64,000 nucleotides of DNA, taken from NCBI GenBank assembly GCA_041743505.1, contig JBGTMQ010000017.1, positions 85,368 to 149,367 of the forward strand, in the 5' to 3' direction. A program made the position numbers and the translations under genes. Below are positions 3,390 to 62,510 of this stretch, in pieces. The number at the start of each line of letters is the position of its first letter. Positions within the stretch are counted from its first letter, which is position 1. The notes under the pieces are model-generated. The model was given only the letters and a program-made list of their open reading frames with translations, did not search any database and was not told where the DNA came from. Origin of the DNA: Candidatus Saccharimonadia bacterium (lineage in GTDB: Bacteria > Patescibacteriota > Saccharimonadia > UBA4664).

Positions 3390-3550
3390 ATGAGGTGTCC
3401 CAAGGACGGAAATCTACGGCAAACCAGCCGCTAGGTATCCGTCCTTTTTAGTTGCGCCGGTTAAGCTTAATCCATCTGCCTTCACACTAAATGTAAGGAA
3501 CTTACATTTAAGTTCCCCGTGGTTATATGTAAGTTGCCTACATTTAGTGG

Positions 3551-7998: not shown

Positions 7999-8118
7999 AC
8001 CCACACTATATGTCAGCAACTTACATTTAGCCACGGGAACCATAAATGTAAGTTCATTACATTTAGCGAGTGGACACAGGGAGAACACTCACGAGTCAGA
8101 CTAATATCCAGCACGACC

Positions 8119-37528: not shown

Positions 37529-40051
37529 TTGTTGATTGTGTTTTTGGTGAATCACATCTGGGGGAGGGCAGCTAGACAATCGCTGTGGGCGATCCTGTTT
37601 GCTGTGCTCTTGTGCCTGGTGCCTCAAGCCGTTTCCGCCGCCGGCGAATCCTACACCTGGCAAGGCACAGGTGACGCCAGCATTGTAGCCTCCGGCGGTA
37701 ACTTCGGGGTCAATAAAACCACCTTCGCCAAGACCGCCGACGCCGGCGGAAGCGCCACCTTTACCGCCAACGCCACCTATGAATGTAGCGGCAAAACCGT
37801 CACCGGCCCGCTTACCATCACAGTGGCTGCCGACAAGTACAAAAAAGCCTACCCCACCGAAGGAAGCGTTACGGGCGCCGGCGCTGCCTGTGCCTTTACG
37901 GCCGCGGTAATCAGCAAAGCCAACGTCGATCAGGTCACCGGCCAGCCCGTCCCCGCCGCCGGCCAGGACCCACGGGAAAGCTGCGACCAAGGCGGGTTTA
38001 CCTGGCTGTTCTGCCCCGTCATCGACAATATATCCTCAGCCGTTGCCGGCCTGGCCCGGGACGTGCTGGGGCCCATGCTTGAGGTCAAACCAATCAGCCC
38101 AGAAACCACACCGGATCTCTACAAAACCTGGACTCATATCCGTGACTTTGCTGTAGTCCTGTTTATTCTCGTGTTTTTTGCCATTATCGGCGCCACACTC
38201 ATACAACAAGATATCGGCGGCTTCGACCAATATACCGTCAAAAAGATCTTGCCCCGACTGGTTATTGCCTCAATCATGGTACAGTTTAGCTTCCTCATCT
38301 CAGGCATTATTGTCGATATCGGAAATGTCCTTGGAGGTGGCATCGGCCACTTGCTGTCTGCGGTCACTGATCCATCCAAAGGCCCGGCCAGCTTCACCAA
38401 CCTGGTCGGCAACCTGGTCACCGGAAGTGTAGCCTCGGTTGCAGGACTGGGCGCCGTCGCCGTCCTGGCGTCGTGGACTGTCGCAATCCCTGTGCTGCTC
38501 GGCCTGCTCTTGAGCCTGCTGACCGTCTTCCTGACGCTTGGCGCCCGCTTCCTCATCCTGGCCGTCCTGATCGCCATCTCACCGATAGCCATGCTCGCCT
38601 GGGTCCTCCCGAACACTCGCGATTTTGCCGCCGCCTGGTTCGAGTTTTTCGTCCGGCTCGTCCTAATGTACCCGCTGGTTATCCTCATCATCTCCGTAGC
38701 CGGCATCGTCAACCAAATACTGCCGTTTAGTGGCGACACCGCCAATAGCGGCAGCGCAGCAGTCGCAGTAGCCCTCATCAAGCCGCTTGTCGTCATTGCC
38801 GCCTTCCTCATTATTCCCATCAGCTTCAAGCTCGCCGGGCTAGCCCTGAGCCGTATCCATGGCCTGCTCACCGGCGTTGCCCAACAGGGTAAAGGCCTCA
38901 TCAAGGGCAGCGATATGTACCAACGGGGCCTCGAGGACCGTCAGGGACGCAAGAATACCTACATGGGCCGCGTCCTCAACTCCAAAACCATCAGCTCACT
39001 CCAAAATAAGGGGCGCGGCGGCCAAGCAGTCGGCGGTTTCATGAGCGGCGCCGCCGCCGTAGCCTTAATGCGCGCCCCCGCCAGCAAAGCCGCTTTGCAA
39101 CGCAGTAACTCTGCACTAGTGGCCAAGCGGGAAAAGAATCTGACCGAAATCAAAGAGGCCCAAAACCCCAACAACCTCAAAGCCGCTTTAGCCGCCATGA
39201 ATGGCGACGAAAGCGCCCGGGCCAAGCTGCAAAGAACCGCTCCAGACTTACTCCGCCTGGCTTCAACCGCTTCCGGCCGCGAAGCCATGTTCAACCGCCT
39301 TCTCGCCACTGAGTTCGCCGACAGCAAAGACCTTGACCAGTTCCGCACAACCGCACCAAAACGCGGCCTCAAATACTTTGGTGTCACCGGTGATACATCC
39401 GCGGAATGGCGCTCCCTGCGTGACGCCGGCCAGGCCAAACGTAACCAGTTACCGACCATCGTACAGCGGCTCGAACAAGCCAAAACCTACGACGTGGTTG
39501 ACCGCGCCGGCAACACGCTCAAGACCATTTCCCGTGACATGGGCGCCGTTGATATGAATGGCGTCTCCAAGTCATTCGCCAAATACACCGCTGCCAAGCT
39601 GGCCGATGTCTCGCCGGATGTCTTTGAAATGATGACCGACACCGCCAACCCAATCGCCGCCATGGATGCTGCCGAGGCCATGGCCATTGGATTGGAGCCA
39701 CGGCAACTCGCCAAAGTCTTCGACCCCAATGACCGCAACCCGGCTCCCCCTGAGCGCAAGATCGCTATCGCTAAAGCTATGCGGGCCCAATATGAGAACG
39801 TCTGGAACACCAACGATGAATACCGCTCCACCTTCGACGCCATGCATCATCAATTGGTCCGCGACGACAAGCTTGGCGTCCAGCTAACCCGTACCGCCGG
39901 CGCCACCGAAACCCAGCTCCGTGCCCTCTCAAACGAAGGCCAATCCTACGTTGCCTCGCGCTGGCTCAAAGACAAGAACTTCAAGTACTCAGATCTAAGC
40001 GGCATGACCGTCGCCGACATCAACGCCGCCGGCCATGCCCTCCGGAGATAA
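37529..40051 (+). CDS. VirB6/TrbL-like polytopic T4SS membrane protein with long hydrophilic C-terminal extension (paralog A)
   Basis: TTG start (the exact start is uncertain). Signal peptide, then a Cys-containing exported segment (CDQGGFTWLFCPVIDN), at least 6 TM helices (DQYTVKKILPRLVIASIMVQFSFLISGIIVDIGN...), then a ~400-aa Ala/Lys-rich soluble tail. Confidence 0.55.
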   Translation: MLIVFLVNHIWGRAARQSLWAILFAVLLCLVPQAVSAAGESYTWQGTGDASIVASGGNFGVNKTTFAKTADAGGSATFTANATYECSGKTVTGPLTITVAADKYKKAYPTEGSVTGAGAACAFTAAVISKANVDQVTGQPVPAAGQDPRESCDQGGFTWLFCPVIDNISSAVAGLARDVLGPMLEVKPISPETTPDLYKTWTHIRDFAVVLFILVFFAIIGATLIQQDIGGFDQYTVKKILPRLVIASIMVQFSFLISGIIVDIGNVLGGGIGHLLSAVTDPSKGPASFTNLVGNLVTGSVASVAGLGAVAVLASWTVAIPVLLGLLLSLLTVFLTLGARFLILAVLIAISPIAMLAWVLPNTRDFAAAWFEFFVRLVLMYPLVILIISVAGIVNQILPFSGDTANSGSAAVAVALIKPLVVIAAFLIIPISFKLAGLALSRIHGLLTGVAQQGKGLIKGSDMYQRGLEDRQGRKNTYMGRVLNSKTISSLQNKGRGGQAVGGFMSGAAAVALMRAPASKAALQRSNSALVAKREKNLTEIKEAQNPNNLKAALAAMNGDESARAKLQRTAPDLLRLASTASGREAMFNRLLATEFADSKDLDQFRTTAPKRGLKYFGVTGDTSAEWRSLRDAGQAKRNQLPTIVQRLEQAKTYDVVDRAGNTLKTISRDMGAVDMNGVSKSFAKYTAAKLADVSPDVFEMMTDTANPIAAMDAAEAMAIGLEPRQLAKVFDPNDRNPAPPERKIAIAKAMRAQYENVWNTNDEYRSTFDAMHHQLVRDDKLGVQLTRTAGATETQLRALSNEGQSYVASRWLKDKNFKYSDLSGMTVADINAAGHALRR

Positions 40052-41013: not shown

Positions 41014-43716
41014 ATGGTGGATCAAACAGCAGCGGGCAAGCGCTTTATGAACCAGCGGTCTTCCGTCTGGCAACGAACCGTTTTTGGCCTCGCGCTAATC
41101 GCCGTCAGCCTCCTTGGCAACCTGCTGCTCATTGCCACAGCTTCGGCCGCCCCCGGCCGCCCCGAGGTCTACACGAAAATCAGCGAAGACGTCATTGCAG
41201 TCACAGGCGGCTATTTCGTAGACAAAACCTACAACCTTACGAAAATTCCAGGCACAAATAACTACCGGGGCGGTGTCCATGCCCCGGAATTTGACTATCC
41301 GTTCGCCAAATGTCTCTTTAGACACACCATCAACGTCGACGACGCCAATCCCCACAAAGGTGTAGTTGAAATCGAAACGGGCTTCGGAAACGGCAGCAAC
41401 TGTACCACCCAGCCTGAGAACTTTGAATGGGGCCCCGTCATCATCGCCCAGCCAGGTCAAACCCAAGAACAAGCCGCCGCTGCCGCCGGTGGTGGCGGTG
41501 CCGCCGGAGCCAATGAAATCGTAGCCACCTGCGACGCCGGCGCCTTCACCTGGCTCCTCTGCCCATTCATCGTCATCGCCCAAGACGGTGTCCGGATCCT
41601 CCAGGGCTGGGTCGAAAACGTCCTCGTCGTCACCCCGTTCAATACCAGCTCCCCGCTCTATTCCGCCTGGTCCGCCTTCCGCAACCTGGCCGACGTCTTC
41701 TTCGTCCTCATTTTCTTCGTCATCATCTTTGGCACCGGCCTCGGTCTAGACAACTACACTGTCAAAAAGATCCTGCCACGCTTAATAGCTGCCGCCATCC
41801 TCGTCCAATTTTCATACATCCTCTCCAGTATCGCCGTCGATTTCTCTAACATACTAGGTCTCGGTTTAAGCCAACTTGTTGCGTCAGCTGTGCCCGCCCA
41901 GTTTAACGCCGAGAAGAGTACCTATCTCCAGGTTGCTGCCCCCATTGCCGGCCTTCTAACCCTTGGTGTGGCCGGCGGAACCATTATCGCCATTGGCGCA
42001 CTGGTACCCGTTATGCTAGCTCTCGCTTCTGCATTCCTATCAATGCTAGCAGTCTTCGTCACGCTCGAGATCCGGCTTATCCTCATCAACTTCCTGGTTG
42101 TTATCTCCCCATTCGCCTTTGTATTCTGGGTACTACCCAACACCCAGCAGTATTTCAAAATGTGGTGGGAATATTTCAGCAAACTCCTTTTAATGTTCCC
42201 AATCATCATGCTCATGTTCACCGCCGCCAACCTGTTCAACCAAGTCACCATCACCACCAACACCGGCGACTTTAACGGCGACATAGCCAAAAACATCATT
42301 GCCTCCCTCCTGCCAATCTTCGTCTTCTTCCTCGTACCAGCCACCTTTAAACTCGCCGGCAGCGCCCTAGCCTTCGGCCATGGCTTAGTCACCCGAGCCG
42401 GCGGCGGTACCAACAAGGGCCTCCAAAGTGCCTTCTGGGGCAAGGATCAGCAGGAACGAAGCAAGCTTAAAGGTCAACAGAAACTTATGAATTTACGAGA
42501 CCAAGGACCTGCTAGCACCCGACTAGGTCGGTTTGCGCAAAACGCACAAAAACAAGCCGCTCAAAAACGTTCAGGATTCGGGTTTGGTGCCGATAAAGGC
42601 TTAAAGGGGCTTCAAATGAACCGAGCCCTCGATAAAACCGCCAGCGAACTCGCCCAATCGGCAGCAACAAAGGACTTCCACGCCCAGTACGGCAAACAAA
42701 CCTATGCGAATACTATGGCAAACCGCAAAGCAGCCGAAATGGACAAAATGCTCACTCAAAGCGCAAACGAAGCCTTCCTGAATCAAGAAGTAGATGTTGG
42801 AGGGGTCAATCTAAAAATTAAAGATGTCAACCTAAACGAAAGCGGCATCAAATCACTGAAGGACAAGGTTAAATCAGCCCTCAGTGACGGCGACCACGCT
42901 ACAGCTATAGCCGCCATGACAAAGCTCAGTCAATCGCAAAGCGGCGAAGACGCACTACAACAGCTTCGGGCAGATCCAAATGTATTCGGAGGCACAGACA
43001 CTGAACCTGTAATAAATAAGTTAAAAGATGTTTGGTCAAAAGGCACTGCAAACGCCAAAAGTCCTGACTTTAAAAAACCACCACAGAATGCCTGGAGCGA
43101 CCTAAGCCAAGAAGAAATAACAAGCATGAGCAATAAACAAGTAAATCGTGCTCTTGAGTATTACAATCGGAACGCTAGTGATCCAAAAGCACAAAAAGCT
43201 GCCAAACAATTTAGCGATAACTTCCAGAAAATACTTGCTAACCCTAACACCGCCAGCAAAATTAATCCGGATAGTGTTGATGCCGTCCAAAATTATCAGT
43301 GGGCCAAAGACACGACTACCGGCAAAGTCCTTACAGGGACTCCGCATCAAGACAGAACAGTATTTAGTAGCACCTCAGACTACCAGGCAGCAGCACATGC
43401 AGCTTCGTTATATACCAAACCGGGTTCAGCCACACCACCCCCAGCACAACCAGCCCCTCAGCCCGCAGCTCCACCACCACAACCAACTCCAACTCCGCTT
43501 ACACAACCAACCGTCAACGTAAATGTCCAGCCGACAAAGCCGACTATCATAACCGCTCCTCGCGCCGGTACACAGTTCCAACAGCCAACTCCTGGCTCCC
43601 TCTACGTCCCGAGCTCATACCAACCACCAACCACCAACCCGCGGCCACCCAAGGTTGATGTTGCCGTCGAAGAACACCGTGACGATCAAATCGGTGACGA
43701 CCGTAGTATCAGCTAA
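41014..43716 (+). CDS. VirB6/TrbL-like polytopic T4SS membrane protein with long hydrophilic C-terminal extension (paralog B)
   Basis: Paralog of 37529..40051 (CDAGAFTWLLCPFIV...; DNYTVKKILPRLIAAAILVQFSYILSSIAVDFSN...). 900 aa, with a Pro/Gln/Thr-rich C-terminus. Alternative start at Met 41047. Confidence 0.55.
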   Translation: MVDQTAAGKRFMNQRSSVWQRTVFGLALIAVSLLGNLLLIATASAAPGRPEVYTKISEDVIAVTGGYFVDKTYNLTKIPGTNNYRGGVHAPEFDYPFAKCLFRHTINVDDANPHKGVVEIETGFGNGSNCTTQPENFEWGPVIIAQPGQTQEQAAAAAGGGGAAGANEIVATCDAGAFTWLLCPFIVIAQDGVRILQGWVENVLVVTPFNTSSPLYSAWSAFRNLADVFFVLIFFVIIFGTGLGLDNYTVKKILPRLIAAAILVQFSYILSSIAVDFSNILGLGLSQLVASAVPAQFNAEKSTYLQVAAPIAGLLTLGVAGGTIIAIGALVPVMLALASAFLSMLAVFVTLEIRLILINFLVVISPFAFVFWVLPNTQQYFKMWWEYFSKLLLMFPIIMLMFTAANLFNQVTITTNTGDFNGDIAKNIIASLLPIFVFFLVPATFKLAGSALAFGHGLVTRAGGGTNKGLQSAFWGKDQQERSKLKGQQKLMNLRDQGPASTRLGRFAQNAQKQAAQKRSGFGFGADKGLKGLQMNRALDKTASELAQSAATKDFHAQYGKQTYANTMANRKAAEMDKMLTQSANEAFLNQEVDVGGVNLKIKDVNLNESGIKSLKDKVKSALSDGDHATAIAAMTKLSQSQSGEDALQQLRADPNVFGGTDTEPVINKLKDVWSKGTANAKSPDFKKPPQNAWSDLSQEEITSMSNKQVNRALEYYNRNASDPKAQKAAKQFSDNFQKILANPNTASKINPDSVDAVQNYQWAKDTTTGKVLTGTPHQDRTVFSSTSDYQAAAHAASLYTKPGSATPPPAQPAPQPAAPPPQPTPTPLTQPTVNVNVQPTKPTIITAPRAGTQFQQPTPGSLYVPSSYQPPTTNPRPPKVDVAVEEHRDDQIGDDRSIS

Positions 43717-43845: not shown

Positions 43846-44532
43846 ATGAGCAAGCAAGGTTGGGAAGCGTACAAAGCAGACGCCCTCAAGCGGCTTGAAG
43901 GTCGTGACGTACAAGCGCCGAGTCAACCAACCCAGACGCTGGGTCAGACACCTCAAGCGCCAACGACTGCACAGGCACCAACTGCTGAGTTTGATCCTGC
44001 GGCAGCATTCCGCGCACACCAAGCCACCGAGCAAACACGTCAACGTGAGCTCGCACAACAGCACGCAGCAGAACGTGAGCTTACTCAAACAAGAGCCCGA
44101 GAGCTTTCAGCTTTCATCGAACGCCTTCGGATGCTCCTGTCCAAAAAAGGCTCACCTGGGCTAACAAGCTTCGAGATTCAGTTAACATATTCCATGTATG
44201 AACCAGCGGTACGGCGAAGGAGTGGTCGTATAATTTCTCCCGAAAAAGAAACACCCCCGACATATCGGACAGAATGGGGCTGGGAGATTGCAAGTATTCA
44301 AGGCCCCGGTGACTATATCTCGTCGCCTCGTTATAATCTCATGCTCTGTAGAGATGGAGCACTATGGGTTACTCTTGGAGCTAGAACATACCTCGATATA
44401 AGTGACGAAACCGGCAATTTCACCCTGACTTGCCGACAAACATCACTTTCACTAGCTAGGCTAGAAGCCGACATCATTCCGGGAGTGGCGAGGTTAGTTG
44501 ATAACCTCAATCTCCAGTGGGATGGCAACTAG
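43846..44532 (+). CDS. hypothetical protein, cassette paralog 1 (candidate T4SS-associated substrate)
   Basis: 228 aa. N-terminus MSKQGWEAYKADALKRLEGR, then a Q/P/T-rich low-complexity segment, a coiled coil, and a C-terminal globular domain (TEWGW.IA...NLMLC.DG.LWVTLG...DIIPGV.RL...L.WDGN). No signal peptide. Confidence 0.5.
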   Translation: MSKQGWEAYKADALKRLEGRDVQAPSQPTQTLGQTPQAPTTAQAPTAEFDPAAAFRAHQATEQTRQRELAQQHAAERELTQTRARELSAFIERLRMLLSKKGSPGLTSFEIQLTYSMYEPAVRRRSGRIISPEKETPPTYRTEWGWEIASIQGPGDYISSPRYNLMLCRDGALWVTLGARTYLDISDETGNFTLTCRQTSLSLARLEADIIPGVARLVDNLNLQWDGN

Positions 44533-44722: not shown

Positions 44723-45388
44723 ATGAGCAAGCAAGGCTGGGAATCGTACGTACAAGATGCCCTCAAGCGACTCAAAGCACGTCAGGCGCCTACAACAAGT
44801 CAACCAACCCAACTGGCTCAGCCTAGCCAGCCAGCTTCAACATCTAGGGACCCTGCAACCCAACTTCGAGCACATCAAGCTGAAATGCAAACTCGTCAAC
44901 GTGAGGAAACGAAACGCCAAGCGACCGAGCTCCTAGAAGCTGAGCAAGAAAACCAAGAGCTGGCAGCCTTCCTAGAACGGCTTCAACGCTTTTTGTTGAA
45001 GCACAACTCACCAGGACTATCAAGCTTCAGTATTCAAACTGGCGGCCACGAAAATAAGAAACTACCTTCAGAGCCCACGGGTCCGCTAGCCGGACGGAGG
45101 AAAGAAGATACAACTTACTCGGTGCCAATAAGCCGAACTGAATGGGGTTGGCAAATAGCCACCCAGAGAGATAGCAGTGGCGAGTCACCAAATACCAACC
45201 TCATGTTGTGTCAGGACGGAACACTTTGGGTTACGCTCGGGTCTACCGTCTACTTTGATGGTTCAGATGGAACCGGCCGGCACACTCTAGGCCACAAAAC
45301 AATTGACACGGTCGGTCTATACATCGATATCATCCCTGGCGTCACCCGACTCCTAAGCGAGCTCGGTCTAGAGTGGGATGGCAACTAA
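44723..45388 (+). CDS. hypothetical protein, cassette paralog 2
   Basis: 221 aa, same architecture as 43846..44532 (MSKQGWESYVQDALKRLKAR...TEWGWQIA...NLMLCQDGTLWVTLG...DIIPGVTRL...LEWDGN). Confidence 0.5.
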   Translation: MSKQGWESYVQDALKRLKARQAPTTSQPTQLAQPSQPASTSRDPATQLRAHQAEMQTRQREETKRQATELLEAEQENQELAAFLERLQRFLLKHNSPGLSSFSIQTGGHENKKLPSEPTGPLAGRRKEDTTYSVPISRTEWGWQIATQRDSSGESPNTNLMLCQDGTLWVTLGSTVYFDGSDGTGRHTLGHKTIDTVGLYIDIIPGVTRLLSELGLEWDGN

Positions 45389-46506: not shown

Positions 46507-47352
46507 ATGGGACAGTATAAAGTTCCTCAAGACGTCGAGTCCGAAGATAAAATCCTTGGGCCGTTAACGTTCAAACAGTTTATTTACGCCTTGGTCGGGT
46601 TCGGTTGGGCCATCGTGTGCTTTGGTGTTTTTCAAAAAATACCTGTTGTAATGATTTTATTGGGATTGCCGCCTACAACGCTATTCTTGCTGCTGGCTTT
46701 TTACCGGCGCGATGGCCAGAACTTCGAGCAATTACTCATCGCCATGGTCGGCTTCTTCGGTAACGACCGCAAACGGCTCTGGCGCAAGGATGACGTGGCG
46801 GAGACGTTCCACATTGAGCCGCACAAGATCATCAAGGAGCAGAGCCAGCGCAACCCGGTCGAAGTCCGCAGTGAGCTAGAGCGCCTGGCTACCATGATCG
46901 ACGCCCGTGGCTGGAACCAAACGCCTGTCCCGGCCGCCGAGGTCATCTCGCCCATCGGCTACAATGCCGGCGACCGGCTGGTAGCACCGGACAGCACGCC
47001 GGCCAACAGCAACCTGCCCCAGCCTCAAGCCAGCGAAGACATGCTAGACCTACAACACAGCCCACTGGCCCAAAACCTGGCCAGCCTCATCGAGACGGCA
47101 GCTGCTGACGTCCGCGAAGAGGCCATCGGCCAAATGAAAGCCCGCCAAACCGCCGCCCAGCGTCAAGCCGCTACTGCCGCTGCCACTCCCGCCCAGAGCA
47201 TAAGCGGCGTGACAGCAACCAACCCGAACGATATAATGAGATTAGCAACGGAGAGGGATGACTTGACCGTCTCGCAGCTGGCCGCGACCGCCACTCGGAA
47301 CGCGCCCCTGCAAGAAGGTCAGTCAGTGAGTGTACGCGCAAATGGTCAATAA
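46507..47352 (+). CDS. VirB3/PrgI-like T4SS membrane protein
   Basis: An AGGAG RBS. Two closely spaced TM helices near the N-terminus (LTFKQFIYALVGFGWAIVCFGVF...VMILLGLPPTTLFLLLAFY), immediately upstream of the VirB4-like ATPase. Long hydrophilic C-terminal tail. Confidence 0.5.
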   Translation: MGQYKVPQDVESEDKILGPLTFKQFIYALVGFGWAIVCFGVFQKIPVVMILLGLPPTTLFLLLAFYRRDGQNFEQLLIAMVGFFGNDRKRLWRKDDVAETFHIEPHKIIKEQSQRNPVEVRSELERLATMIDARGWNQTPVPAAEVISPIGYNAGDRLVAPDSTPANSNLPQPQASEDMLDLQHSPLAQNLASLIETAAADVREEAIGQMKARQTAAQRQAATAAATPAQSISGVTATNPNDIMRLATERDDLTVSQLAATATRNAPLQEGQSVSVRANGQ

Positions 47353-48088
47353 CCAGTCAACCAGTAACCCAGCCAACACCGGCAAGAGCACTCAGGGCAG
47401 CTTGCTGATTTCTGAAATCAAAGACGGCGTGGTCGTAATGCGCGACGGCTCGTTGCGCGGCGTCATCCTCGGCTCGGCCATTAACTTCGACCTCATGAGC
47501 TCGCAGGAGCAGGAGGCCGTCGAATTTGCTTACCAGGGCTTTATTAACTCATTGCACTTTCCCGTCCAAATCAGTATCAAGAGCCAGAAAATAGACCTGG
47601 ACGGATATCTCGAAAAGTTAACCGCCCTGCGCAGTGCCCAGCCCAATGAGCTGCTCGGCCTGCTCATGGACGACTACATGGCTAACATCAAGGCCCTGGT
47701 CGACGAGGTCAACATTATGGACAAGCAGTTCTACGTCACCGTGCCGTTCTTCCCGCCGGTAAATCCCACCAAAACGGTTAGCCTCATTGCCGGCATCAAA
47801 GCCGCCTTACAACCCGTCCCGATTATTACGGTTGAAGAAGATGAGTTCAAAAAGTACAAGCAAGAGCTGTCGCAGCGCATGGCCTTGGTCTCAAGCGGCA
47901 TGTCCCAAATGGGCATCCGGGCGCTAGCCTTGGGTACCCAGGAGCTGGTTGACCTGTATTACGGCTGGTACAACCCGGATGTGGCCGTCAACGAGAAACT
48001 CATCGACACTTCACAGCTCACCTCACCGGTAGTTACCAAGGGTGACGGCGCCGCGCCCCGCGGACCATTACCGGGAGCACCAGTATGA
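47342..48088 (+). CDS. VirB4-like ATPase, N-terminal domain encoded as a separate ORF
   Basis: ISEIKDGVVVMRDGSLRGVILGSAINFDLMSSQEQEAVEFAYQGFINSLHFPVQISIKSQKIDLDGYLEKL matches the conserved VirB4/TrbE/CagE N-terminal region. The start overlaps the upstream stop. Confidence 0.55.
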   Translation: MVNNQSTSNPANTGKSTQGSLLISEIKDGVVVMRDGSLRGVILGSAINFDLMSSQEQEAVEFAYQGFINSLHFPVQISIKSQKIDLDGYLEKLTALRSAQPNELLGLLMDDYMANIKALVDEVNIMDKQFYVTVPFFPPVNPTKTVSLIAGIKAALQPVPIITVEEDEFKKYKQELSQRMALVSSGMSQMGIRALALGTQELVDLYYGWYNPDVAVNEKLIDTSQLTSPVVTKGDGAAPRGPLPGAPV

Positions 48089-48224
48089 GACGGTTCCGCC
48101 ACGCGTACCTGGATGCAGTACCAGGAAAGAGCGAAGCCCGGAGTGAGGCGTACTTAAACGTACGCCAAGCGAGGACTGTAGCTCATGACGCCGTAATGCG
48201 CCAGGTACGCGGGGAGGATAGCTA

Positions 48225-50114
48225 ATGGCTATATTTGGCAAAAAACAAGAACCAATGACACCAGGCGGCCTGGCCGCAGCTCAACAAGCTCAAGAGCAGC
48301 GCGAAGCCGAGTTAATCTACCGCCAAGGCATTGTCACCATGCGCGACCTCATCGCGCCACCATCACTCGAGATCGAGTCAGGCTACATTCGGCTAGGCAA
48401 GCGCTTCGCCAAGACCATTTACGTCTACGGTTTTCCCCGCCAGGTCTTTACCGGCTGGCTATCGCCCATTATCAACCTGGACGAAATTATCGACATTTCG
48501 CTGTTTATTTATCCCGTAGAGAGCAAGGTCGTGCTGGAAAACCTGCGCAAAAAAGTCGGTCAGCTGGAGGCCAGTTACTCGATCAACCAGGAGAAGGGCA
48601 AAGTCCGCGACCCTGGACTCGAAGCCGCCATCCAAGACGCCGAGGAACTGCGTGACAAACTCCAGGTAGGGGAGGAGCGCTTCTTCCGCTTCGGCTTGTA
48701 CCTCACCATGTATGCCGATTCACTCGACGAGCTCACCCAAGTCACCCGCAAAATCGAGGGCATTTTCGGCCAGTCACTGGTCTACACCAAGCCGGCCACC
48801 ATGCAGATGGAGCAGGGCTTCAACTCCACCACACCGCTCGGCTCAGACCAGCTCGGCATCTCCCGCAACATGAACACCGGCGCCCTGTCTACCAGTTTCC
48901 CGTTCACCTCGGCCGAATTGAGCCGCAACGAAGGAGTGTTGTACGGCCTCAACCGGCACAACAACGGTTTGGTTTTGTTTGACCGCTTCTCGCTCGAAAA
49001 CGCCAACATGGTCGTGTTCGCCAAGTCCGGCGCCGGTAAGTCCTTCGCTATCAAGCTCGAAGCCCTACGTAGCCTCATGATGGGCACCGAAATCATCATC
49101 ATCGACCCGGAGAACGAGTACAAAACCCTCGCAGAGGCCGTCGGCGGCAGCTACCTGCGCCTGTCCCTGGCTGCCACCACCCGCATCAATCCCTTTGACC
49201 TGCCGCGCGTCTTTGACCAGGAAGAGGCCGACAACGCCTTGCAGGCCAACATTATCACTCTGCACGGCCTGCTGCGCCTCATGATGGGTGGTGCCTCCGT
49301 CAACACCACCACCGGCGCCACGCTCACCACACCACTGACTCCGGCCGAAGACGCCGACCTGGACGTGGCTATCATCAACACCTACGCCCGCGCCGGCATC
49401 ACCAAAGACCCGTTGACCCACAACGTCATGCCGCCAACCATGAATGACCTCTATAACACCCTGGCCTCCATGACCGGCAACGGCCCCGGACTGGCCCAGC
49501 GCCTGCGCAAATACACCACCGGCACATTCAGTGGTATCTTCTCAGAACAGTCCAACGTCAAACTCGACAACCCGTTCCTGGTCTTCAACATCCGCGACCT
49601 CGAAGACGAACTGCGGCCCGTCGGCATGTACATCGTCCTAAATTACATCTGGAACAAGGTCAAATCCGACAAGCGTAGGCGCATCCTCATCGTGGACGAG
49701 GCTTGGCAGCTCATGAAATACGACGACTCGGCTGCCTTCATGTTCTCTCTGGCCAAACGTGCCCGCAAGTACTTCCTCGGCCTTACCACCATCTCCCAGG
49801 ACGTGGAAGACTTCTTGAGTAACAAAATGGGCCGGGCAGTCGTGGCCAACTCCTCGCTACAGCTCTTGCTCAAGCAAGCCCCCAGCGCCATCGACATCGT
49901 GGCCGACACCTTCAAGCTCACCAGCGAGGAGAAAAACCGCCTCAGCCAGTTCCCGGTCGGTGAAGGATTGTTCTTTGCCGGTCTCAACCACGTCATCATT
50001 CGCATTCTCGCCTCACAAACCGAAGCCGAGCTCATCTCAACCAACCCGCAAGCTCTCCAAGCCGCCCGCCAGGAGCAGGCTGAGGCTGATGCCGGTCGCC
50101 AAGGAGCAGCCTGA
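48225..50114 (+). CDS. VirB4/TrbE-like T4SS ATPase, central and C-terminal ATPase part
   Basis: A GGGGAGGA RBS; Walker A FAKSGAGKSF; Walker B RRILIVDEAWQLM; conserved VirB4 middle region (IAPPSLEIESGYIRLGKRFAKTIYVYGFP). Confidence 0.8.
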   Translation: MAIFGKKQEPMTPGGLAAAQQAQEQREAELIYRQGIVTMRDLIAPPSLEIESGYIRLGKRFAKTIYVYGFPRQVFTGWLSPIINLDEIIDISLFIYPVESKVVLENLRKKVGQLEASYSINQEKGKVRDPGLEAAIQDAEELRDKLQVGEERFFRFGLYLTMYADSLDELTQVTRKIEGIFGQSLVYTKPATMQMEQGFNSTTPLGSDQLGISRNMNTGALSTSFPFTSAELSRNEGVLYGLNRHNNGLVLFDRFSLENANMVVFAKSGAGKSFAIKLEALRSLMMGTEIIIIDPENEYKTLAEAVGGSYLRLSLAATTRINPFDLPRVFDQEEADNALQANIITLHGLLRLMMGGASVNTTTGATLTTPLTPAEDADLDVAIINTYARAGITKDPLTHNVMPPTMNDLYNTLASMTGNGPGLAQRLRKYTTGTFSGIFSEQSNVKLDNPFLVFNIRDLEDELRPVGMYIVLNYIWNKVKSDKRRRILIVDEAWQLMKYDDSAAFMFSLAKRARKYFLGLTTISQDVEDFLSNKMGRAVVANSSLQLLLKQAPSAIDIVADTFKLTSEEKNRLSQFPVGEGLFFAGLNHVIIRILASQTEAELISTNPQALQAARQEQAEADAGRQGAA

Positions 50115-56756: not shown

Positions 56757-57017
56757 TTACAAACTCTGGATACTGATCGCCAGCCGCGTATCAGCTAGAT
56801 CATGCCGCCGCAACAATTCAATCTGGCGCATCCTAAGCTCCGACGCCACCGCCGAATTCGGCGTAATAATCCGCAACGTTCCCTGATGCAACTGCTTCAC
56901 CCGGGCTTGTCCCGAATACCATTCATCCAGCGTCGCCTGAACCTGAGTCAACACGTCCGCCCGGTCCATACCCAACTGCTCCCGCTTTTTGGCAAAATAA
57001 TCCTCAAACATGCACAC
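56757..57017 (-). CDS. DUF721 domain protein (DciA-like), recF-associated
   Basis: 86 aa, located immediately downstream of recF as in many dnaA-dnaN-recF-DUF721-gyrB clusters. The TLRIITPNSAVASEL core matches DUF721. Confidence 0.5.
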   Translation of the reverse strand: MCMFEDYFAKKREQLGMDRADVLTQVQATLDEWYSGQARVKQLHQGTLRIITPNSAVASELRMRQIELLRRHDLADTRLAISIQSL

Positions 57018-58080
57018 CCTCAGCCGTCGAAATAATACTATGCGGCGCCTTAATCTCCCGCGTCACTGCATCCGCGTCCGTCGTCGTAATCAGCGTCTGG
57101 TGATCCCGCAAACGCTCTAGTAAATACCCGCGCCGGTTACGGTCCAACTCGCTAAACACGTCATCCAAAAGCAAGATCGGCCGGATACCGGTTTTAGTCT
57201 CCGCATAGCCCACCTCAGCCAGCTTCAGGGCCAACACCACCGTGCGCGTCTCGCCCCGCGACGCCACAGCCGAAATGTCATTGTTTTTAAAATGTACCCT
57301 AAAATCCTCGCGGTGCGGCCCGATAGTCGTAAACCCGGCGCCCAGATCCCGCATCAAGTTGTTATTAAGCGCCTCCATAAAGGCATCTCCGTACGAATCA
57401 CCCGCCACACTAGGCAGATACTCCAGCTCTAGATCTACCACCGAACCGGCAATATCGCCGTACAGGCCGGGCAGGGAAGCATTAAGCTGGACCAGCAAGT
57501 CCTGGCGCTGCTGATAAATCTCCGAGGCTAGCTCCGTCAGCTTCAGATCCCAGGCAAAGATCTGCCGGCGCAAAGCTTCCATCTCCAGTCCCTCCAGGAG
57601 CGCGTTGCGCTGCTTCAGGACGCGCCGGTATGCCTGAAGCGTCTTCAGATACCCCCGGTCGGTCTGGCACAACAAAAAATCCAAGTATTTGCGGCGCCCA
57701 TCCGGCGGCCCAGCCGTCAGCTCCAAATCAGTCGGCTCAAACAACGTCACCTGAATCTGCCCCACATGACCCACCAGCGTGCGCTTGGTTCCGTCATGCG
57801 TAATACGCTTCTCAAGCGGACCACCCGCTACACTCAAACCCAGCGCATATTCCACCTCATCCCCAGATCCCACAATCCGAAAATGGTCCTGCTCATGCCG
57901 GATCAGGTCCCGGTCCTTCGCCCGAAACGATTTCGTCGATGCCAGCGTATACAAACTCTCCAGCAAATTAGTCTTACCGCTGGCATTCGGGCCCACCACC
58001 AGCGTCACCGCCGGATGCAGCTCATACCGCGCCCGCTCATAGGACCTAAAATTCGTTAACTCCAGCTCGCGCATCGTCAT
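57004..58080 (-). CDS. recF: DNA replication and repair protein RecF
   Basis: LELTNFRSYE...VVGPNASGKTNLLESL Walker A, plus an ABC-type signature region. 358 aa. Confidence 0.85.
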   Translation of the reverse strand: MTMRELELTNFRSYERARYELHPAVTLVVGPNASGKTNLLESLYTLASTKSFRAKDRDLIRHEQDHFRIVGSGDEVEYALGLSVAGGPLEKRITHDGTKRTLVGHVGQIQVTLFEPTDLELTAGPPDGRRKYLDFLLCQTDRGYLKTLQAYRRVLKQRNALLEGLEMEALRRQIFAWDLKLTELASEIYQQRQDLLVQLNASLPGLYGDIAGSVVDLELEYLPSVAGDSYGDAFMEALNNNLMRDLGAGFTTIGPHREDFRVHFKNNDISAVASRGETRTVVLALKLAEVGYAETKTGIRPILLLDDVFSELDRNRRGYLLERLRDHQTLITTTDADAVTREIKAPHSIISTAEGVHV

Positions 58081-58306
58081 AGCTACATTGTATCTGATAT
58101 TCGCACGCGACCTACCCCGGTAACCTCAGCTCATCTTTTGCACCCCAGCCACGCCTCAAGCTTCGCCATTTCCATGTACGCTACCTACTAGAATTTTTCT
58201 AGTCATTGTATTTTTCAAGTAATATATTATAATAAATACCTTGGCAAAGCCACAATTAATCAAGTCTTTTCGCTTACGCTCGCTCAACTAGAAAAATTCT
58301 AGTACC

Positions 58307-58642
58307 ATGCCAGCCATGTCATCTCTTGCTCCGCTCCAATCAATCCGGTTTTGCATCCTGCTCGCTCTAGCCAAAGCACCAATGTGCGGCGCCGATATCG
58401 AACGCCAAATCATGGAAGATAGCCGTAGCAGCATTTACATTCATTTCACGACAATCTATAAAACACTCAAATCTCTCAAGCAAAAAGGTTTGATCACCCA
58501 AGCATCACGCCCGTACAGTCTATTATTTGGCCACCCAACAACGACCTATCAACTCACCAACCAAGGCCAACGCATCCTCAAAAACGAAATTTTGCGCCTA
58601 AAATCCGCCCTAACCATCGCCAATCAACGAATTACAGAATAA
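58307..58642 (+). CDS. PadR-like winged-helix transcriptional regulator
   Basis: FCILLALAKAPMCGADIERQI...IYKTLKSLKQKGLI pattern. Two ACTAGAAnnnnnTTCTAGT palindromes lie in its upstream region. Confidence 0.45.
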   Translation: MPAMSSLAPLQSIRFCILLALAKAPMCGADIERQIMEDSRSSIYIHFTTIYKTLKSLKQKGLITQASRPYSLLFGHPTTTYQLTNQGQRILKNEILRLKSALTIANQRITE

Positions 58643-58661
58643 TAACCACCCCACCCAAAAC

Positions 58662-59771
58662 CTAAGTTCTAAGCGGCATCACAATATGAATATAATCATC
58701 AGCCGCTTCATCGCCAGCAGGAGACAAGACGCACGGGTTCAGCTTACCGCTAATCGCAAATGTCACCCGCGGCGACTTAATCACACTCAGCGCATCCTGC
58801 AAATAGCGGGCATTGAGCGAAATCTCTCCATCCTCGCCCGCAACTTCACATTCAGCCGTACTCTTATTGCCACCCACCTCTGAGTCACTAGTCACAATAC
58901 TTACTTCGCCCTCAGGCTTAATCTCAAGCTTAATACTCCCGGCACTCTCGCGCGCAAACAGGCTGGCCACCTTGGTAATACGGCTAAACTCGGCCGTATC
59001 AATATCAAACGACGTCTCTGCCCGCTGTGGAATAATCTGGCGGTAGCTAATAAACTTGCCCTCAATCAACCGCGAAATAAGCTCAACCTCACCCACCCGA
59101 AACATTACCTGGTTCTCGTCCAAGTACAACTCCACATCGCCACTAGACTCATTCAGAAGCCGTACCAGCTCTTGTATTGTCCGGACCGGCACAATCACCG
59201 ACAACTCACGTGACGGCTCCTCAGCCAGCTCTAAACGCTTCTCAGCCAAGCGGTATGAGTCGGTTGCCACGGCATACAGCACCGCGCCCTCAGTATACAA
59301 ATGCACGCCGGCCAAAACCGGCCGGGCTTCATCAACCGAAGCTGCCACTACCACCTGTGCCAGCGCCTCACGCAAAACCCCGTTATCCAATTTCAATACC
59401 GGATCGGACGCCACTTGCGGTATAGTTGGAAACTCTTCGGCCGTGATGCCATTAATCGTTGATTCATAATGAGGCGTTCGCACTGTCAAGTTAGCCTCGT
59501 CTGCTTCCAAATCAATATTCCCGTGCGGCAGACTCGAAACAAACTCCGCAAACAAACGGGCGGGAACTGTTAATGACCCCTGTTGGTCAATTTTAGAGCC
59601 AATCCAATAATTAATCCCAATCTCCAAATTAGTCGCCGACAACCGCAGCCGGTTACCATCCGTCGTTAGGAGTACATTTGATAGCACTGGCAAGCTGGAG
59701 CGGCTGGATACAACCCGGCCAACACTAGCCAGGGCACGAGATAAATTCTCCTGAGTTAGGCTAAGCCTCAT
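58662..59771 (-). CDS. dnaN: DNA polymerase III subunit beta (sliding clamp)
   Basis: 369 aa, three-domain clamp. N-terminal LSLTQENLSRALASVGRVVSSRSSLPVLSNVLL. Confidence 0.85.
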   Translation of the reverse strand: MRLSLTQENLSRALASVGRVVSSRSSLPVLSNVLLTTDGNRLRLSATNLEIGINYWIGSKIDQQGSLTVPARLFAEFVSSLPHGNIDLEADEANLTVRTPHYESTINGITAEEFPTIPQVASDPVLKLDNGVLREALAQVVVAASVDEARPVLAGVHLYTEGAVLYAVATDSYRLAEKRLELAEEPSRELSVIVPVRTIQELVRLLNESSGDVELYLDENQVMFRVGEVELISRLIEGKFISYRQIIPQRAETSFDIDTAEFSRITKVASLFARESAGSIKLEIKPEGEVSIVTSDSEVGGNKSTAECEVAGEDGEISLNARYLQDALSVIKSPRVTFAISGKLNPCVLSPAGDEAADDYIHIVMPLRT

Positions 59772-60120
59772 CTTTCCACTCCTTAACCGATTTACTTCAT
59801 TATACAGATAATACTTAAAAATAATCGTAATAATAGTAAGCTCTGTGGAAACTGGGCAAAAGTCTGTTTTTGGCTTAAACCCATCTATAAAACGCCAATG
59901 CTAATTGAGGATAACCAGTGGGTAGCCCTGGGGTACGCCTGTGTCCGCATCCGGGAAAAGATATTCTCAGCCTGTGGGAAACCAACCAAAATGCTTGTGT
60001 TTCCCACACCATTCCCCAGGTTTTACCCACCATTTTTACCCAGTCGGGGATAATCAAAATTAAAGGGGCCGTAGCCCCTCCAACCTAACTAGATTGATCC
60101 GGGACTACGGCCACATAAAA

Positions 60121-60675
60121 TCATTGATGCATACTCGATGGCGGCAACGATGGGGCATTCCCATATACAACCACACCATCAAGACGTTCATCAGCCTCCA
60201 GCACTCTCGAGTAGTCGGTGGTATAGGGGTCTTTAAGAGTAACTCGTGGGTTGATACCACTGCGGGTAAGCAGGGTCACCGCCTTCCATTCAATTGGCAG
60301 CTTGGCTGACCAACTGGCATAAACGACGCGGGTGCGCTCGTCAAATGCCACCTCAACACTTGCCGCGTCTACCCTAACGCCGCGGCCGTCACACAGTCTC
60401 TGAAGGGTGAAGCTCTTTTTCTCGCCACTAAGAGAAATGGTGAGGTATGCCACGATATTATCGCCAGTGTCTTCCCGGGGTGGGTCTAATCCCGGGTCGC
60501 AAACCGCACTGGTGATCGGAGGTGGATTATCGAGGCGGTGGTAGTACCACGGAATCCCGATGGCCACCAGTCCGAGACAAAGCAAGCTAACAAACAACGC
60601 CGCAATGCTAAACGCCAGGGTGGAATTGATCTTCTTCAAAGGAACTCCCTGATAGTAGGAATAAACCAGACGCAC
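60121..60675 (-). CDS. hypothetical membrane-anchored protein
   Basis: 184 aa, N-terminal TM helix. Located between dnaA and dnaN. Confidence 0.4.
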   Translation of the reverse strand: MRLVYSYYQGVPLKKINSTLAFSIAALFVSLLCLGLVAIGIPWYYHRLDNPPPITSAVCDPGLDPPREDTGDNIVAYLTISLSGEKKSFTLQRLCDGRGVRVDAASVEVAFDERTRVVYASWSAKLPIEWKAVTLLTRSGINPRVTLKDPYTTDYSRVLEADERLDGVVVYGNAPSLPPSSMHQ

Positions 60676-60718
60676 AGAGTAATAGTTAATTATAGCACAT
60701 TTACATACAATTGTCTAC

Positions 60719-62337: not shown

Positions 62338-62475
62338 ATGTCGAAGCGAACGTACCAGCCAAAGAAAAGCCGCCGCCAGCGGGTCCATGGGTTCTTAGAA
62401 CGCATGGCTAGCCGCGCCGGGCGTCTTGTCCTCAAGCGCCGCCGGCTCAAGCGCCGCAAGCGCGTTGCCATCTAG
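62338..62475 (+). CDS. rpmH: 50S ribosomal protein L34
   Basis: [45 protein letters not shown], 45 aa. It is below the ORF-track size cutoff and is followed by a strong terminator hairpin. Confidence 0.9.
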
Positions 62476-62510
62476 CAAATAAGCCGCTGTCAGCGGCTTA
62501 TTTGCTAGTT
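62476..62510 (+). terminator. rho-independent terminator of rpmH
   Basis: CAAATAAGCCGCTG-TCA-CAGCGGCTTATTTG perfect hairpin. Confidence 0.6.

What the first reader, a model, noticed from the sequence alone, without database searches (positions are those of the whole stretch)
47330..50114. VirB4 ATPase encoded as two ORFs in different frames
ORF 47342..48088 carries the conserved VirB4 N-terminal domain. ORF 48225..50114 starts with its own strong RBS (GGGGAGGA) and carries the middle region plus the Walker A/B ATPase. The two are separated by 136 nt and lie in different reading frames. This is either a genuine split gene with subunits assembling in trans, or a frameshift or sequencing error, or an early pseudogene. 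That the second part has its own RBS and start favours a real split.
Basis: seen in the sequence. Interest (0 to 1): 0.65.

Follow-up and report, generated by a model that had tools for sequence, protein, structure and literature searches.

The report
Known TrsD–VirB4 gene pair, hairpin insert
The "split VirB4" is real but ordinary, being the two-gene TrsD plus short-VirB4 arrangement already described for type IV secretion systems of Patescibacteria; the only unusual point is that the 136-base gap is a hairpin-forming insertion in a junction where the two genes normally overlap by one base.

Summary
ORF1 (47342..48088) resembles the VirB4 N-terminus. ORF2 (48225..50114) is a VirB4 ATPase lacking about the first 180 profile positions. 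They are 136 nt apart, in different frames.

It is not an error or a pseudogene. More than 100 Saccharimonadia protein clusters have each ORF at the same length. All 65 distinct orthologous loci are split. dN/dS is 0.04-0.09 for both ORFs.

The arrangement is already published. ORF1 is a TrsD-family protein, and the order VirB3-like, TrsD, short VirB4 matches pSK41/pGO1. A 2025 survey found 2,272 TrsD homologs in Patescibacteria, most of them next to virB4.

The 136-nt gap is the new part. In 38 of 65 orthologous loci the ORF1 stop and the ORF2 ATG overlap by one base (TAATG). That includes all the closest loci retrieved (77-83% identity). The window carries a private insert of about 137 nt. 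It folds into a long hairpin (z = -5.5) that buries ORF2's ribosome-binding site.

A 46-codon mini-ORF spans the insert exactly, from ATGA at the ORF1 stop to TAATG at the ORF2 start. Five other lineages have unrelated inserts at this junction, also spanned by a mini-ORF. This suggests that translational coupling is being preserved. That is an inference, not a demonstrated mechanism.

The parts
46507..47352 (+). PrgI/VirB3-like membrane protein gene. It overlaps the start of ORF1 by 11 nt.
   Evidence: Pfam PF12666 PrgI, E = 1.8e-14. Same position in orthologous loci.
47342..48088 (+). ORF1: TrsD-family protein resembling the VirB4 N-terminus, 248 aa.
   Evidence: NCBIfam TrsD, E = 1e-5. Precomputed Pfam PF26593 'TraC-like'. 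The family-wide hits, the fused relative and the fold matches are. dN/dS is 0.087.
48073..48077 (+). Ancestral Shine-Dalgarno-like GGGAG inside the last codons of ORF1. Here it sits 7 nt upstream of the mini-ORF ATG.
   Evidence: Read from the sequence. The same GGAG lies about 8-13 nt upstream of the TAATG junction in orthologous loci.
48085..48225 (+). 46-codon bridging mini-ORF (MRRFRHAYLDAVPGKSEARSEAYLNVRQARTVAHDAVMRQVRGEDS). Its ATG overlaps the ORF1 stop (ATGA) and its TAA overlaps the ORF2 ATG (TAATG).
   Evidence: It was called as a gene in an independent assembly. It has no homolog among 5.8 billion proteins and no Pfam match.
48086..48222 (+). Lineage-specific insert of about 137 nt at the ORF1/ORF2 junction. 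The exact ends are ambiguous by 1-2 nt.
   Evidence: Absent from the closest orthologs retrieved, L002-L005 and L091-L094 at 82-83% identity, which read ...CCAGTCTAATGG....
48095..48218 (+). Imperfect palindrome that folds into a long hairpin. The outer arms are 48095-48112 and 48201-48218, and the apical stem is 48147-48153 / 48160-48166.
   Evidence: the repeat finder gives 18-nt arms at 89% complementarity. MFE is -63 kcal/mol, z = -5.54, with 0 of 200 shuffles folding as well.
48211..48218 (+). Shine-Dalgarno GGGGAGGA for ORF2. It lies in the 3' arm of the hairpin and is base-paired in the predicted fold.
48225..50114 (+). ORF2: VirB4-type ATPase of the TrsE type (629 aa), lacking the N-terminal ~180 positions of single-chain VirB4. 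Walker A is at 49029-49043 and Walker B at 49680-49700.
   Evidence: NF045971, E = 4e-105, profile positions 183-730 of 752. Pfam P-loop_TraG, AAA_10 and DUF87. It aligns end to end with pSK41 TrsE, E = 2e-43. dN/dS is 0.04-0.06.

Best explanation
ORF1 and ORF2 are two separate, functional genes of a chromosomal monoderm-type type IV secretion system in a Saccharimonadia (Patescibacteria) genome.

ORF1 is a TrsD-family protein, homologous to the N-terminal part of single-chain VirB4. ORF2 is the rest of VirB4: the middle region plus the Walker A/B ATPase domain. It has the same N-terminally short form as TrsE of pSK41/pGO1. The gene order VirB3-like (PrgI), TrsD, VirB4 is the standard one for this system.

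By inference from single-chain VirB4 structures, TrsD docks onto VirB4 and the VirB3-like protein in trans. It would thereby supply the membrane-proximal N-terminal module.

In relatives the TrsD stop codon and the VirB4 start codon overlap by one base (TAATG), with the ribosome-binding site inside the end of trsD. This is the classic layout for translational coupling.

In this genome only, a palindromic sequence of about 137 nt has inserted at exactly that junction. It leaves both proteins unchanged. It folds into a long hairpin that sequesters the new ribosome-binding site of virB4. It is spanned exactly by a 46-codon mini-ORF that starts on the trsD stop (ATGA) and ends on the virB4 start (TAATG).

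The most likely working (inferred, not shown) is a relay. Ribosomes finishing trsD restart on the mini-ORF, melt the hairpin as they translate it, terminate at TAATG and restart on virB4. Coupled expression would therefore survive the insertion.
For: The split is conserved.
- The 120 best ORF1 homologs are 216-256 aa at 70-100% identity, and those with a source name are from Saccharimonadia/Patescibacteria.
- The 120 best ORF2 homologs are 611-677 aa apart from one 566-aa entry, at 82-92% identity.
- Of the 150 best library representatives of ORF1, all but one (898 aa) are 122-478 aa.
- All 65 distinct orthologous loci are split. 38 have a 1-nt overlap, 16 a gap of 0-20 nt, 3 another overlap and 8 a gap of at least 80 nt.
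- dN/dS is 0.087 for ORF1 and 0.04-0.06 for ORF2.

ORF1 resembles the VirB4 N-terminus. ORF2 lacks that part.

pSK41 has the same order: trsC-position ORF (unnamed hypothetical protein in the record), trsD (227 aa), TrsE-position DUF87 protein (672 aa).

Literature: TrsD shares remote homology with the VirB4 N-terminus. There are 2,272 homologs in CPR genomes, 1,664 of them associated with virB4, and the gene is essential in Southlakia epibionticum (PMC12102498).

The insert:
- It is absent in all the closest relatives retrieved.
- The identical sequence appears in a second assembly (L001).
- The hairpin has z = -5.5.
- No promoter-like or terminator-like site falls in the gap.

The relay pattern: in 6 of 8 junctions with inserts of at least 80 nt (window, L028, L035, L062, L068, L079), an ATG within -3 to +4 nt of the trsD stop opens an ORF of 29-51 codons. 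It spans the whole insert and stops 0-13 nt past the virB4 start. The other two frames are closed in all eight. The shuffle-based Poisson-binomial P is 6e-6.
Against: - No expression, ribosome-profiling or interaction data exist for this organism. Assembly in trans and relay translation are both inferences.
- The test for bridging ORFs was designed after the pattern was seen, on only 8 loci.
- Only the window and L068 inserts fold significantly better than shuffles. The others have z between -0.2 and -1.5.
- ORF2 has a strong ribosome-binding site at ideal spacing, so it might initiate independently whenever the hairpin breathes.
- The ORF1 structure model is only moderate (pLDDT 61), and its fold matches are weak (TM 0.33-0.37, E about 1e-3).
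- ORF1 scores far below NCBIfam's curated TrsD cut-off: 25 bits against 200.
Confidence: 0.85

Rival explanations
1. A single VirB4 gene is broken by a frameshift or by a sequencing or assembly error. The true product would be one chain of about 880 aa.
For: Single-chain relatives exist, for example P0376 (898 aa) and the CD1110 and Mycoplasma-ICE VirB4 families. The two ORFs are adjacent and co-linear with them.
Against: All 65 distinct orthologous loci, from many independent metagenomes and genomes, are split at the same point with a stop/start overlap. The gap is a palindrome, not degraded linker coding sequence. A second assembly gives the identical sequence.
Confidence: 0.01
2. The gene pair is an early pseudogene. 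The insertion has uncoupled or silenced virB4, and the system is decaying in this lineage.
For: The insert is unique to this lineage. It buries the virB4 ribosome-binding site in a -63 kcal/mol hairpin. dN/dS over long branches cannot detect very recent inactivation.
Against: - Both ORFs are intact, full length and under strong constraint.
- The insert leaves the ORF1 C-terminus (…PLPGAPV) and the ORF2 N-terminus (MAIFGKK…) the same as the family consensus or the closest ortholog.
- Every neighbouring T4SS gene examined is intact.
- The T4SS genes, trsD included, are essential in the one cultivated relative tested (PMC12102498).
- The exact ATGA…TAATG bridging ORF is hard to explain without continued selection.
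Confidence: 0.03
3. The split and the insert are real, but the mini-ORF is incidental. virB4 would be translated from its own ribosome-binding site. The hairpin would act as something else: a selfish palindromic (MITE-like or IVS-like) element, an RNase III processing site that separates the trsD and virB4 transcripts, or an mRNA stabiliser.
For: The site GGGGAGGA-N6-ATG is strong. In another lineage (L030) the same junction holds a 23S-rRNA-intervening-sequence protein gene (PF05635, E = 3e-35) flanked by 45-nt inverted repeats; in rRNA such elements are known RNase III substrates (general knowledge, not tested here). The mini-ORF peptide has no homolog. The chance of this one insert being open in that frame is 7-18%.
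Against: The mini-ORF is not merely open. It begins on the ORF1 stop and ends on the ORF2 start. The same bridging is seen in 5 further, unrelated inserts, while the other frames are always closed. The ribosome-binding site is paired in the minimum-energy and centroid folds.
Confidence: 0.3
4. The 137-nt palindrome is an assembly artefact, such as a chimeric or fold-back read product.
For: Palindromic junk can arise from amplification chimeras. The two assemblies that carry it (an NCBI contig of 149,533 nt and a Logan contig from SRR28170471) may derive from the same reads.
Against: The palindrome is imperfect, with 89% complementarity in the arms and many internal mismatches, unlike fold-back artefacts. 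It sits exactly between two intact ORFs and supplies a stop, a start, a ribosome-binding site and an open frame. Two different assemblers agree.
Confidence: 0.04

Closest known systems
TrsD + TrsE of staphylococcal conjugative plasmids pSK41/pGO1 (MPF_FATA, pGO1 subclass), and the equivalent TraD/TraE genes covered by the NCBIfam 'TrsD/TraD family' name
   Same: The gene order is the same: small VirB3-like membrane protein, then a protein of about 230-250 aa (TrsD), then a VirB4 ATPase of about 630-670 aa without the usual N-terminus. ORF2 aligns with pSK41 TrsE over residues 41-622 against 36-643 (E = 2e-43). ORF1 and all 31 relatives tested match the TrsD profile.
   Different: The sequences are very distant. 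ORF1 scores 25 bits against a curated cut-off of 200, and hhalign against pSK41 TrsD gives only 28% probability. The system here is chromosomal, near dnaA, and not on a plasmid. pSK41 has a 14-nt spacer rather than a 1-nt overlap or a hairpin insert.
Patescibacteria/CPR type IV secretion system (Quiñonero-Coronel et al. 2025, PMC12102498; essential in Southlakia epibionticum, Wang et al. 2023)
   Same: The components are identical: VirB6/TrbL-like, PrgI/VirB3, TrsD, VirB4 and a downstream lysozyme/peptidase. The location near the replication origin also matches. TrsD next to virB4 is reported as the commonest configuration.
   Different: The passages of the paper that were searched do not mention the 1-nt overlap, inserts at the junction or bridging mini-ORFs. 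This window carries a private hairpin insert.
Single-chain VirB4/TraC/TrbE ATPases, for example R388 TrwK and the CD1110 family
   Same: ORF1 plus ORF2 are co-linear with them. The Walker A and B motifs are present. The ORF1 model's best fold matches are TrwK.
   Different: Here there are two polypeptides. ORF2 alone covers profile positions 183-730 of 752.
Rickettsia palindromic elements (RPEs), which are palindromic repeats of about 100-150 nt that insert into genes and are translated (recalled from the literature, not tested here)
   Same: A palindromic insert of about 137 nt sits in an essential coding region, is kept open for translation, and leaves the flanking proteins functional.
   Different: RPEs are multi-copy and are translated in frame as part of the host protein. 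This insert is single-copy in everything searched. It is translated, if at all, as a separate mini-ORF between two genes.
23S rRNA intervening-sequence (IVS) elements
   Same: In locus L030 an IVS-protein gene with 45-nt inverted repeats occupies this same junction. The window insert is likewise a long stem.
   Different: The window insert encodes no IVS protein and has no sequence similarity to L030.

Membership tests
TrsD/TraD family (NCBIfam NF041427) / Pfam PF26593 'TraC-like' | Sequence match to the family profile | tested here: inconclusive
   NF041427 is matched at E = 1.1e-5 and 25.4 bits, far below the curated cut-off of 200, over residues 15-71 only. All 32 relatives match it, best E = 4e-10. 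The precomputed Pfam PF26593 hit is unmarked, meaning E <= 1e-5. That model is not in the local Pfam copy, so it could not be rerun.
TrsD/TraD family | Encoded immediately upstream of a VirB4 gene and downstream of a VirB3-like gene | tested here: met
   The order is PrgI 46507-47352, ORF1 47342-48088, VirB4 48225-50114. pSK41 has the same order.
TrsD/TraD family | Remote homology to the N-terminal part of single-chain VirB4 | tested here: met
   ORF1 aligns to residues 6-228 of the fused P0376 (E = 4e-42). Of 32 relatives, 32 match the Mycoplasma-ICE VirB4 profile, 21 match the CD1110 profile, and 19 match TIGR00929. For the window ORF1 itself the CD1110 match is weak (E = 0.05) and falls at positions 11-79 of 752. 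Foldseek's top 14 PDB hits are all TrwK/VirB4.
VirB4-like conjugal transfer ATPase, CD1110 family (NF045971) | Score above the curated cut-off | tested here: met
   ORF2 scores 352.7 bits against a cut-off of 325, E = 4e-105.
VirB4-like conjugal transfer ATPase, CD1110 family (NF045971) | Full-length single chain that includes the N-terminal domain (profile positions 1 to about 180) | tested here: not met
   ORF2 covers profile positions 183-730 of 752 only. The missing part is supplied by a separate gene.
VirB4 ATPase in general | Walker A and Walker B nucleotide-binding motifs | tested here: met
   GAGKS is at residue 269 and RILIVDE at residue 486 of ORF2. Pfam P-loop_TraG, AAA_10 and DUF87 all match.
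Canonical VirB4_CagE (TIGR00929) | Score above the curated cut-off | tested here: not met
   102.9 bits against a cut-off of 643. The protein is a distant, monoderm-type relative.
Translationally coupled gene pair | Stop/start overlap, with the ribosome-binding site inside the upstream gene | tested here: met
   Orthologs: 38 of 65 have TAATG or TGATG, with a GGAG motif about 8-13 nt upstream. Window: ATGA and TAATG overlaps through the mini-ORF. Actual coupling cannot be tested with these tools.
Multi-copy palindromic mobile element (MITE, REP or RPE type) | Several related copies in the genome | tested here: not met
   There is no second copy in the 64-kb window. A scan of genome contigs for the arms gave 7 hits in unrelated high-GC taxa with no internal similarity, which is about the chance expectation. 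Viral contigs gave none. The rest of this genome could not be searched.
Multi-copy palindromic mobile element (MITE, REP or RPE type) | Terminal inverted repeats and a target-site duplication | tested here: inconclusive
   Inverted arms of 18 nt are present at 89% complementarity. No clear target-site duplication is seen, and the junction is ambiguous around TA.
23S rRNA IVS element | Encodes a PF05635 four-helix-bundle protein between long inverted repeats | tested here: not met
   The window's mini-ORF has no Pfam match. L030, at the same junction in another lineage, does meet this feature (E = 3e-35).
Known structured RNA (Rfam) | Match to a covariance model | tested here: not met
   No match at gathering score. 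Only chance-level matches, E >= 0.9, at the relaxed threshold.

The most novel reading that the evidence does not exclude
The trsD-virB4 junction of Patescibacteria is under such strong selection for translational coupling that palindromic elements landing in it survive only if they are spanned by a 'relay' mini-ORF. That mini-ORF starts on the trsD stop codon and ends on, or just past, the virB4 start codon. Ribosomes would be handed from trsD through the insert to virB4 while melting a hairpin that otherwise hides the virB4 ribosome-binding site. The window (46 codons, ATGA…TAATG) would be the cleanest example of a recurrent, previously undescribed way in which operons tolerate selfish insertions.
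Probability: 0.4. Interest if true: 0.5.

Novelty: already known. Interest (0 to 1): 0.27.

Why it matters
The split itself adds nothing new. TrsD next to a short VirB4 is the published norm for Patescibacteria and for pGO1-type Gram-positive systems. Annotators should stop flagging it as a frameshift or a pseudogene.

Two things are of modest value.

1. Across 65 distinct orthologous loci, most junctions are a 1-nt stop/start overlap with the ribosome-binding site inside trsD. This argues that the two halves of this VirB4 are made in fixed proportion, and it fits an obligate complex.
2. The junction has been hit repeatedly by unrelated inserts, several of them visibly palindromic, that are nearly always spanned by a mini-ORF. 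If confirmed on the full set of about 1,600 CPR loci and by ribosome profiling, this would be a clear natural example of selection preserving translational coupling across insertions in an essential operon.

Tried and rejected
1. Frameshift, sequencing error or pseudogene. Rejected on conservation and dN/dS.

2. Known RNA family in the gap. Rfam gave nothing at gathering score or at the relaxed threshold.

3. Promoter or intrinsic terminator in the gap. None was predicted.

4. Multi-copy element.
   - There is no other copy in the window.
   - The arms pattern in genome contigs gave only chance-level hits in unrelated taxa.
   - Nothing was found in viral contigs.

5. Homologs of the 46-aa peptide. 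Only the peptide itself was found, and it has no Pfam match.

6. Sequence relatives of ORF1 among solved structures. None, even at E <= 10.

7. More junctions from viral contigs. There were no relatives.

8. ORF2 homologs with long N-termini as possible markers of in-frame inserts. The only case, P0221/L096, proved to be a mis-called start at an ordinary TAATG junction.

9. Programmed bypassing or frameshifting that would fuse the two ORFs. This was considered but not tested directly. It is unnecessary, because relatives have no gap and the split is universal.

10. A target-site duplication that would point to a transposase-mediated insertion. No convincing one was found.

11. The source accession could not be recovered.

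Full report
**What is in the sequence**

The + strand carries a tightly packed run of genes:
- A PrgI/VirB3-like gene at 46507-47352 (Pfam PF12666, E = 1.8e-14).
- ORF1 at 47342-48088 (248 aa from the ATG; the reading frame opens at GTG 47330).
- A 136-nt gap at 48089-48224.
- ORF2 at 48225-50114 (629 aa).
- A 983-aa ORF, followed by a lysozyme/C39-peptidase protein.

Upstream lie two large polytopic proteins; only 37529-40051 matched Pfam TrbL/VirB6, and 41014-43716 had no Pfam match. ORF1 and ORF2 are in different frames. GGGGAGGA sits 6 nt before the ORF2 ATG.

**What the two ORFs are**

ORF2 is a VirB4-type ATPase. It scores 352.7 bits against NCBIfam CD1110 (cut-off 325, E = 4e-105). It also matches Pfam P-loop_TraG, AAA_10 and DUF87, and has Walker A (GAGKS) and Walker B (RILIVDE) motifs. 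However, it covers only profile positions 183-730 of 752, so the N-terminal ~180 positions are missing.

ORF1 has no hit in the local Pfam copy. The protein database labels it and all its relatives PF26593 'TraC-like'. It also matches NCBIfam TrsD/TraD at E = 1e-5.

Several results show that ORF1 resembles the VirB4 N-terminus:
- All 32 relatives scanned match TrsD, and all 32 match the Mycoplasma-ICE VirB4 profile (best E = 4e-8). 21 match the CD1110 VirB4 profile and 19 match TIGR00929. For the window ORF1 itself the CD1110 match is weak (E = 0.05) and falls at N-terminal positions 11-79 of 752.
- A fused relative, P0376 (898 aa), aligns ORF1 to its residues 6-228 (35% identity, E = 4e-42). 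It aligns ORF2 to its residues 302-889 (50% identity). So the two ORFs are co-linear with a single-chain VirB4, and nothing but a variable linker lies between them.
- An AlphaFold model of ORF1 is only moderate (pLDDT 61). Its 14 best PDB matches are nevertheless all TrwK/VirB4 of plasmid R388, with probability 0.82-1.0 but TM only 0.33-0.37.

**Is the split real?**

Yes, and it is old.
- The 120 best ORF1 homologs are all 216-256 aa.
- The 120 best ORF2 homologs are 611-677 aa, apart from one 566-aa entry.
- In a library of 1.84 billion representatives, 1,834 proteins match ORF1. Among the best 150, only one is a full-length fusion.
- I fetched 80 metagenomic loci and several genomic ones. 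In all 65 distinct loci that hold both genes, they are separate.
- Against relatives whose synonymous sites are saturated, dN/dS is 0.087 for ORF1 and 0.04-0.06 for ORF2.

A sequencing error, a frameshift or decay can be set aside.

**Is it new?**

No. pSK41 has the same order: a small trsC-position ORF (an unnamed hypothetical protein in the record), trsD (227 aa), then the TrsE-position DUF87 protein (672 aa). ORF2 aligns end to end with that TrsE.

Quiñonero-Coronel et al. 2025 (PMC12102498) report the following:
- It is the most abundant T4SS component in Patescibacteria, with 2,272 homologs, 1,664 of them associated with virB4.
- It is essential in Southlakia epibionticum.

The cluster here also lies 7-25 kb from recF-dnaN-dnaA, as that paper describes.

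**The 136-nt gap**

This is the part that is not ordinary.

In the closest relatives retrieved (82-83% identity; L002-L005, L091-L094) the junction reads ...CCAGGAGCACCAGTCTAATGGGA... The TAA of trsD shares its last A with the ATG of virB4. The same 1-nt overlap, with a GGAG motif about 8-13 nt upstream inside trsD, is found in 38 of 65 loci, down to 42% identity. A further 16 loci have gaps of 0-20 nt. This is the textbook layout of translational coupling.

The window instead has about 137 extra bases (48086-48222) at exactly this point. The ORF1 C-terminus (...PLPGAPV) is unchanged, and the ORF2 N-terminus (MAIFGKK...) differs from the closest ortholog (MGIFGKK...) at one residue.

The insert has these properties:
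- It is an imperfect palindrome, with arms at 48095-48112 and 48201-48218 and an apical stem at 48147-48166.
- Its MFE is -63 kcal/mol and z = -5.5.
- It has no Rfam match, and no promoter-like or terminator-like site.
- It has no second copy in the window.
- No credible copy exists in the public collections searched.
- A second assembly (Logan, SRR28170471) has the identical sequence.

**The mini-ORF**

A 46-codon ORF (48085-48225) fills the insert exactly. Its ATG overlaps the trsD TGA (ATGA), and it uses the ancestral GGGAG 7 nt upstream. Its TAA overlaps the virB4 ATG (TAATG). The peptide has no homolog.

On its own this could be chance. Shuffles leave that frame open 7-18% of the time.

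However, seven other loci also carry inserts of 89-455 nt at this junction, unrelated in sequence. In five of them (L028, L035, L062, L068, L079) an ATG within -3 to +4 nt of the trsD stop opens an ORF of 29-51 codons. That ORF spans the whole insert and stops 0-13 nt past the virB4 start. L035 and L068 end in TGATG and TAATG, exactly like the window.

The other two frames are closed in all eight inserts. The probability of 6 or more open frames out of 8 under shuffling is 6e-6.

The two exceptions are:
- L030, where the insert is a complete 23S-rRNA-intervening-sequence protein gene (PF05635, E = 3e-35) between 45-nt inverted repeats.
- L081, where the ORF has only 17 codons.

**How it most likely works**

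Shown:
- Two conserved genes that are co-linear with VirB4.
- A coupled junction in relatives.
- A private hairpin insert spanned by an exactly fitting ORF.

Inferred from single-chain VirB4 structures and from the essentiality data:
- TrsD supplies in trans the N-terminal module that contacts VirB3 and the membrane.
- ORF2 forms the ATPase ring.

Inferred from the anatomy:
- After the insertion, ribosomes that terminate trsD restart on the mini-ORF.
- They unwind the hairpin as they translate it, terminate at TAATG and restart on virB4.

I put the two-gene reading at above 0.95 and the relay at about 0.4-0.5.

The main alternative is that virB4 now starts independently from its own strong site. 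The hairpin would then be a selfish element or an RNase III processing element, and the open frame would be incidental.

Caveats: the bridging test was framed after the pattern was seen, and n = 8. Only two of the inserts (the window and L068) fold significantly better than shuffles.

**Verdict**

The phenomenon is already known as TrsD + VirB4, so overall interest is low. The hairpin insert and the recurrent bridging mini-ORFs are a small new observation that deserves a systematic survey.

Noticed in passing
L028:3736-3880, L035:973-1061, L062:3287-3376, L068:3739-3841, L079:682-790, L081:3712-3888: Unrelated inserts of 89-177 nt sit at the same trsD/virB4 junction in other Patescibacteria. 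Several have arms built of short tandem repeats in inverted orientation, for example L079 GGTTACTGGTTGCGGGTTACGG … CAACCTACAACCTACAACCTA. Five of the six are spanned by a mini-ORF that starts at the trsD stop and ends 0-13 nt past the virB4 start.
   Followed up: partly
L030:3760-4214: A complete 23S-rRNA-intervening-sequence protein gene (PF05635, E = 3e-35; it also weakly matches bAvd-like) is flanked by 45-nt inverted repeats and inserted between trsD and virB4. This is an IVS-type element in an mRNA operon rather than in rRNA.
   Followed up: partly
window 3485-3549 and 8006-8066: Two related AT-rich hairpins share the motif TAAATGTAAG / CTTACATTTA in an otherwise 54% GC window. They may be copies of a small palindromic repeat family. 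They are unrelated to the insert at 48086.
   Followed up: no
window 43846-44532 and 44723-45388: Two adjacent paralogous ORFs of 228 and 221 aa both begin MSKQGWE.Y..DALKRL and both end in W/EWDGN. Pfam finds nothing for the first (the second was not scanned). They lie just upstream of the PrgI-TrsD-VirB4 genes, and their function is unknown.
   Followed up: no
window 57004-62104 (- strand): recF, dnaN and dnaA lie 7-12 kb downstream of virB4 and converge on the T4SS cluster. This fits the published remark that CPR T4SS loci often sit near the replication origin. Perfect 18-nt inverted repeats lie at 58186-58203/58287-58304 and 62472-62508, flanking these genes.
   Followed up: partly
window 37529-40051 and 41014-43716: Two large paralog-like polytopic proteins of 840 and 900 aa share conserved stretches in their membrane regions (e.g. 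YTVKKILPRL, VQFS..IS) and have long C-terminal tails, that of the second being low-complexity and proline-rich. Only the first matches Pfam TrbL/VirB6 (E = 2.5e-6).
   Followed up: no
proteins P0250 (478 aa), P0288 (452 aa), P0245, P0249 and others: In some representatives the TrsD-like domain lies at the C-terminal end of proteins of 300-480 aa (for example residues 209-440 of 478). These may be PrgI/VirB3-TrsD fusions, which would parallel the VirB3-VirB4 fusions known elsewhere. Only NCBIfam was run on two of them.
   Followed up: partly
L096:2501-2560: A gene caller extended virB4 by 19 codons upstream into trsD (P0221, 644 aa), although the locus has the ordinary ...GTGTAATGGGA junction. 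This shows how the overlap can mislead automatic annotation.
   Followed up: yes
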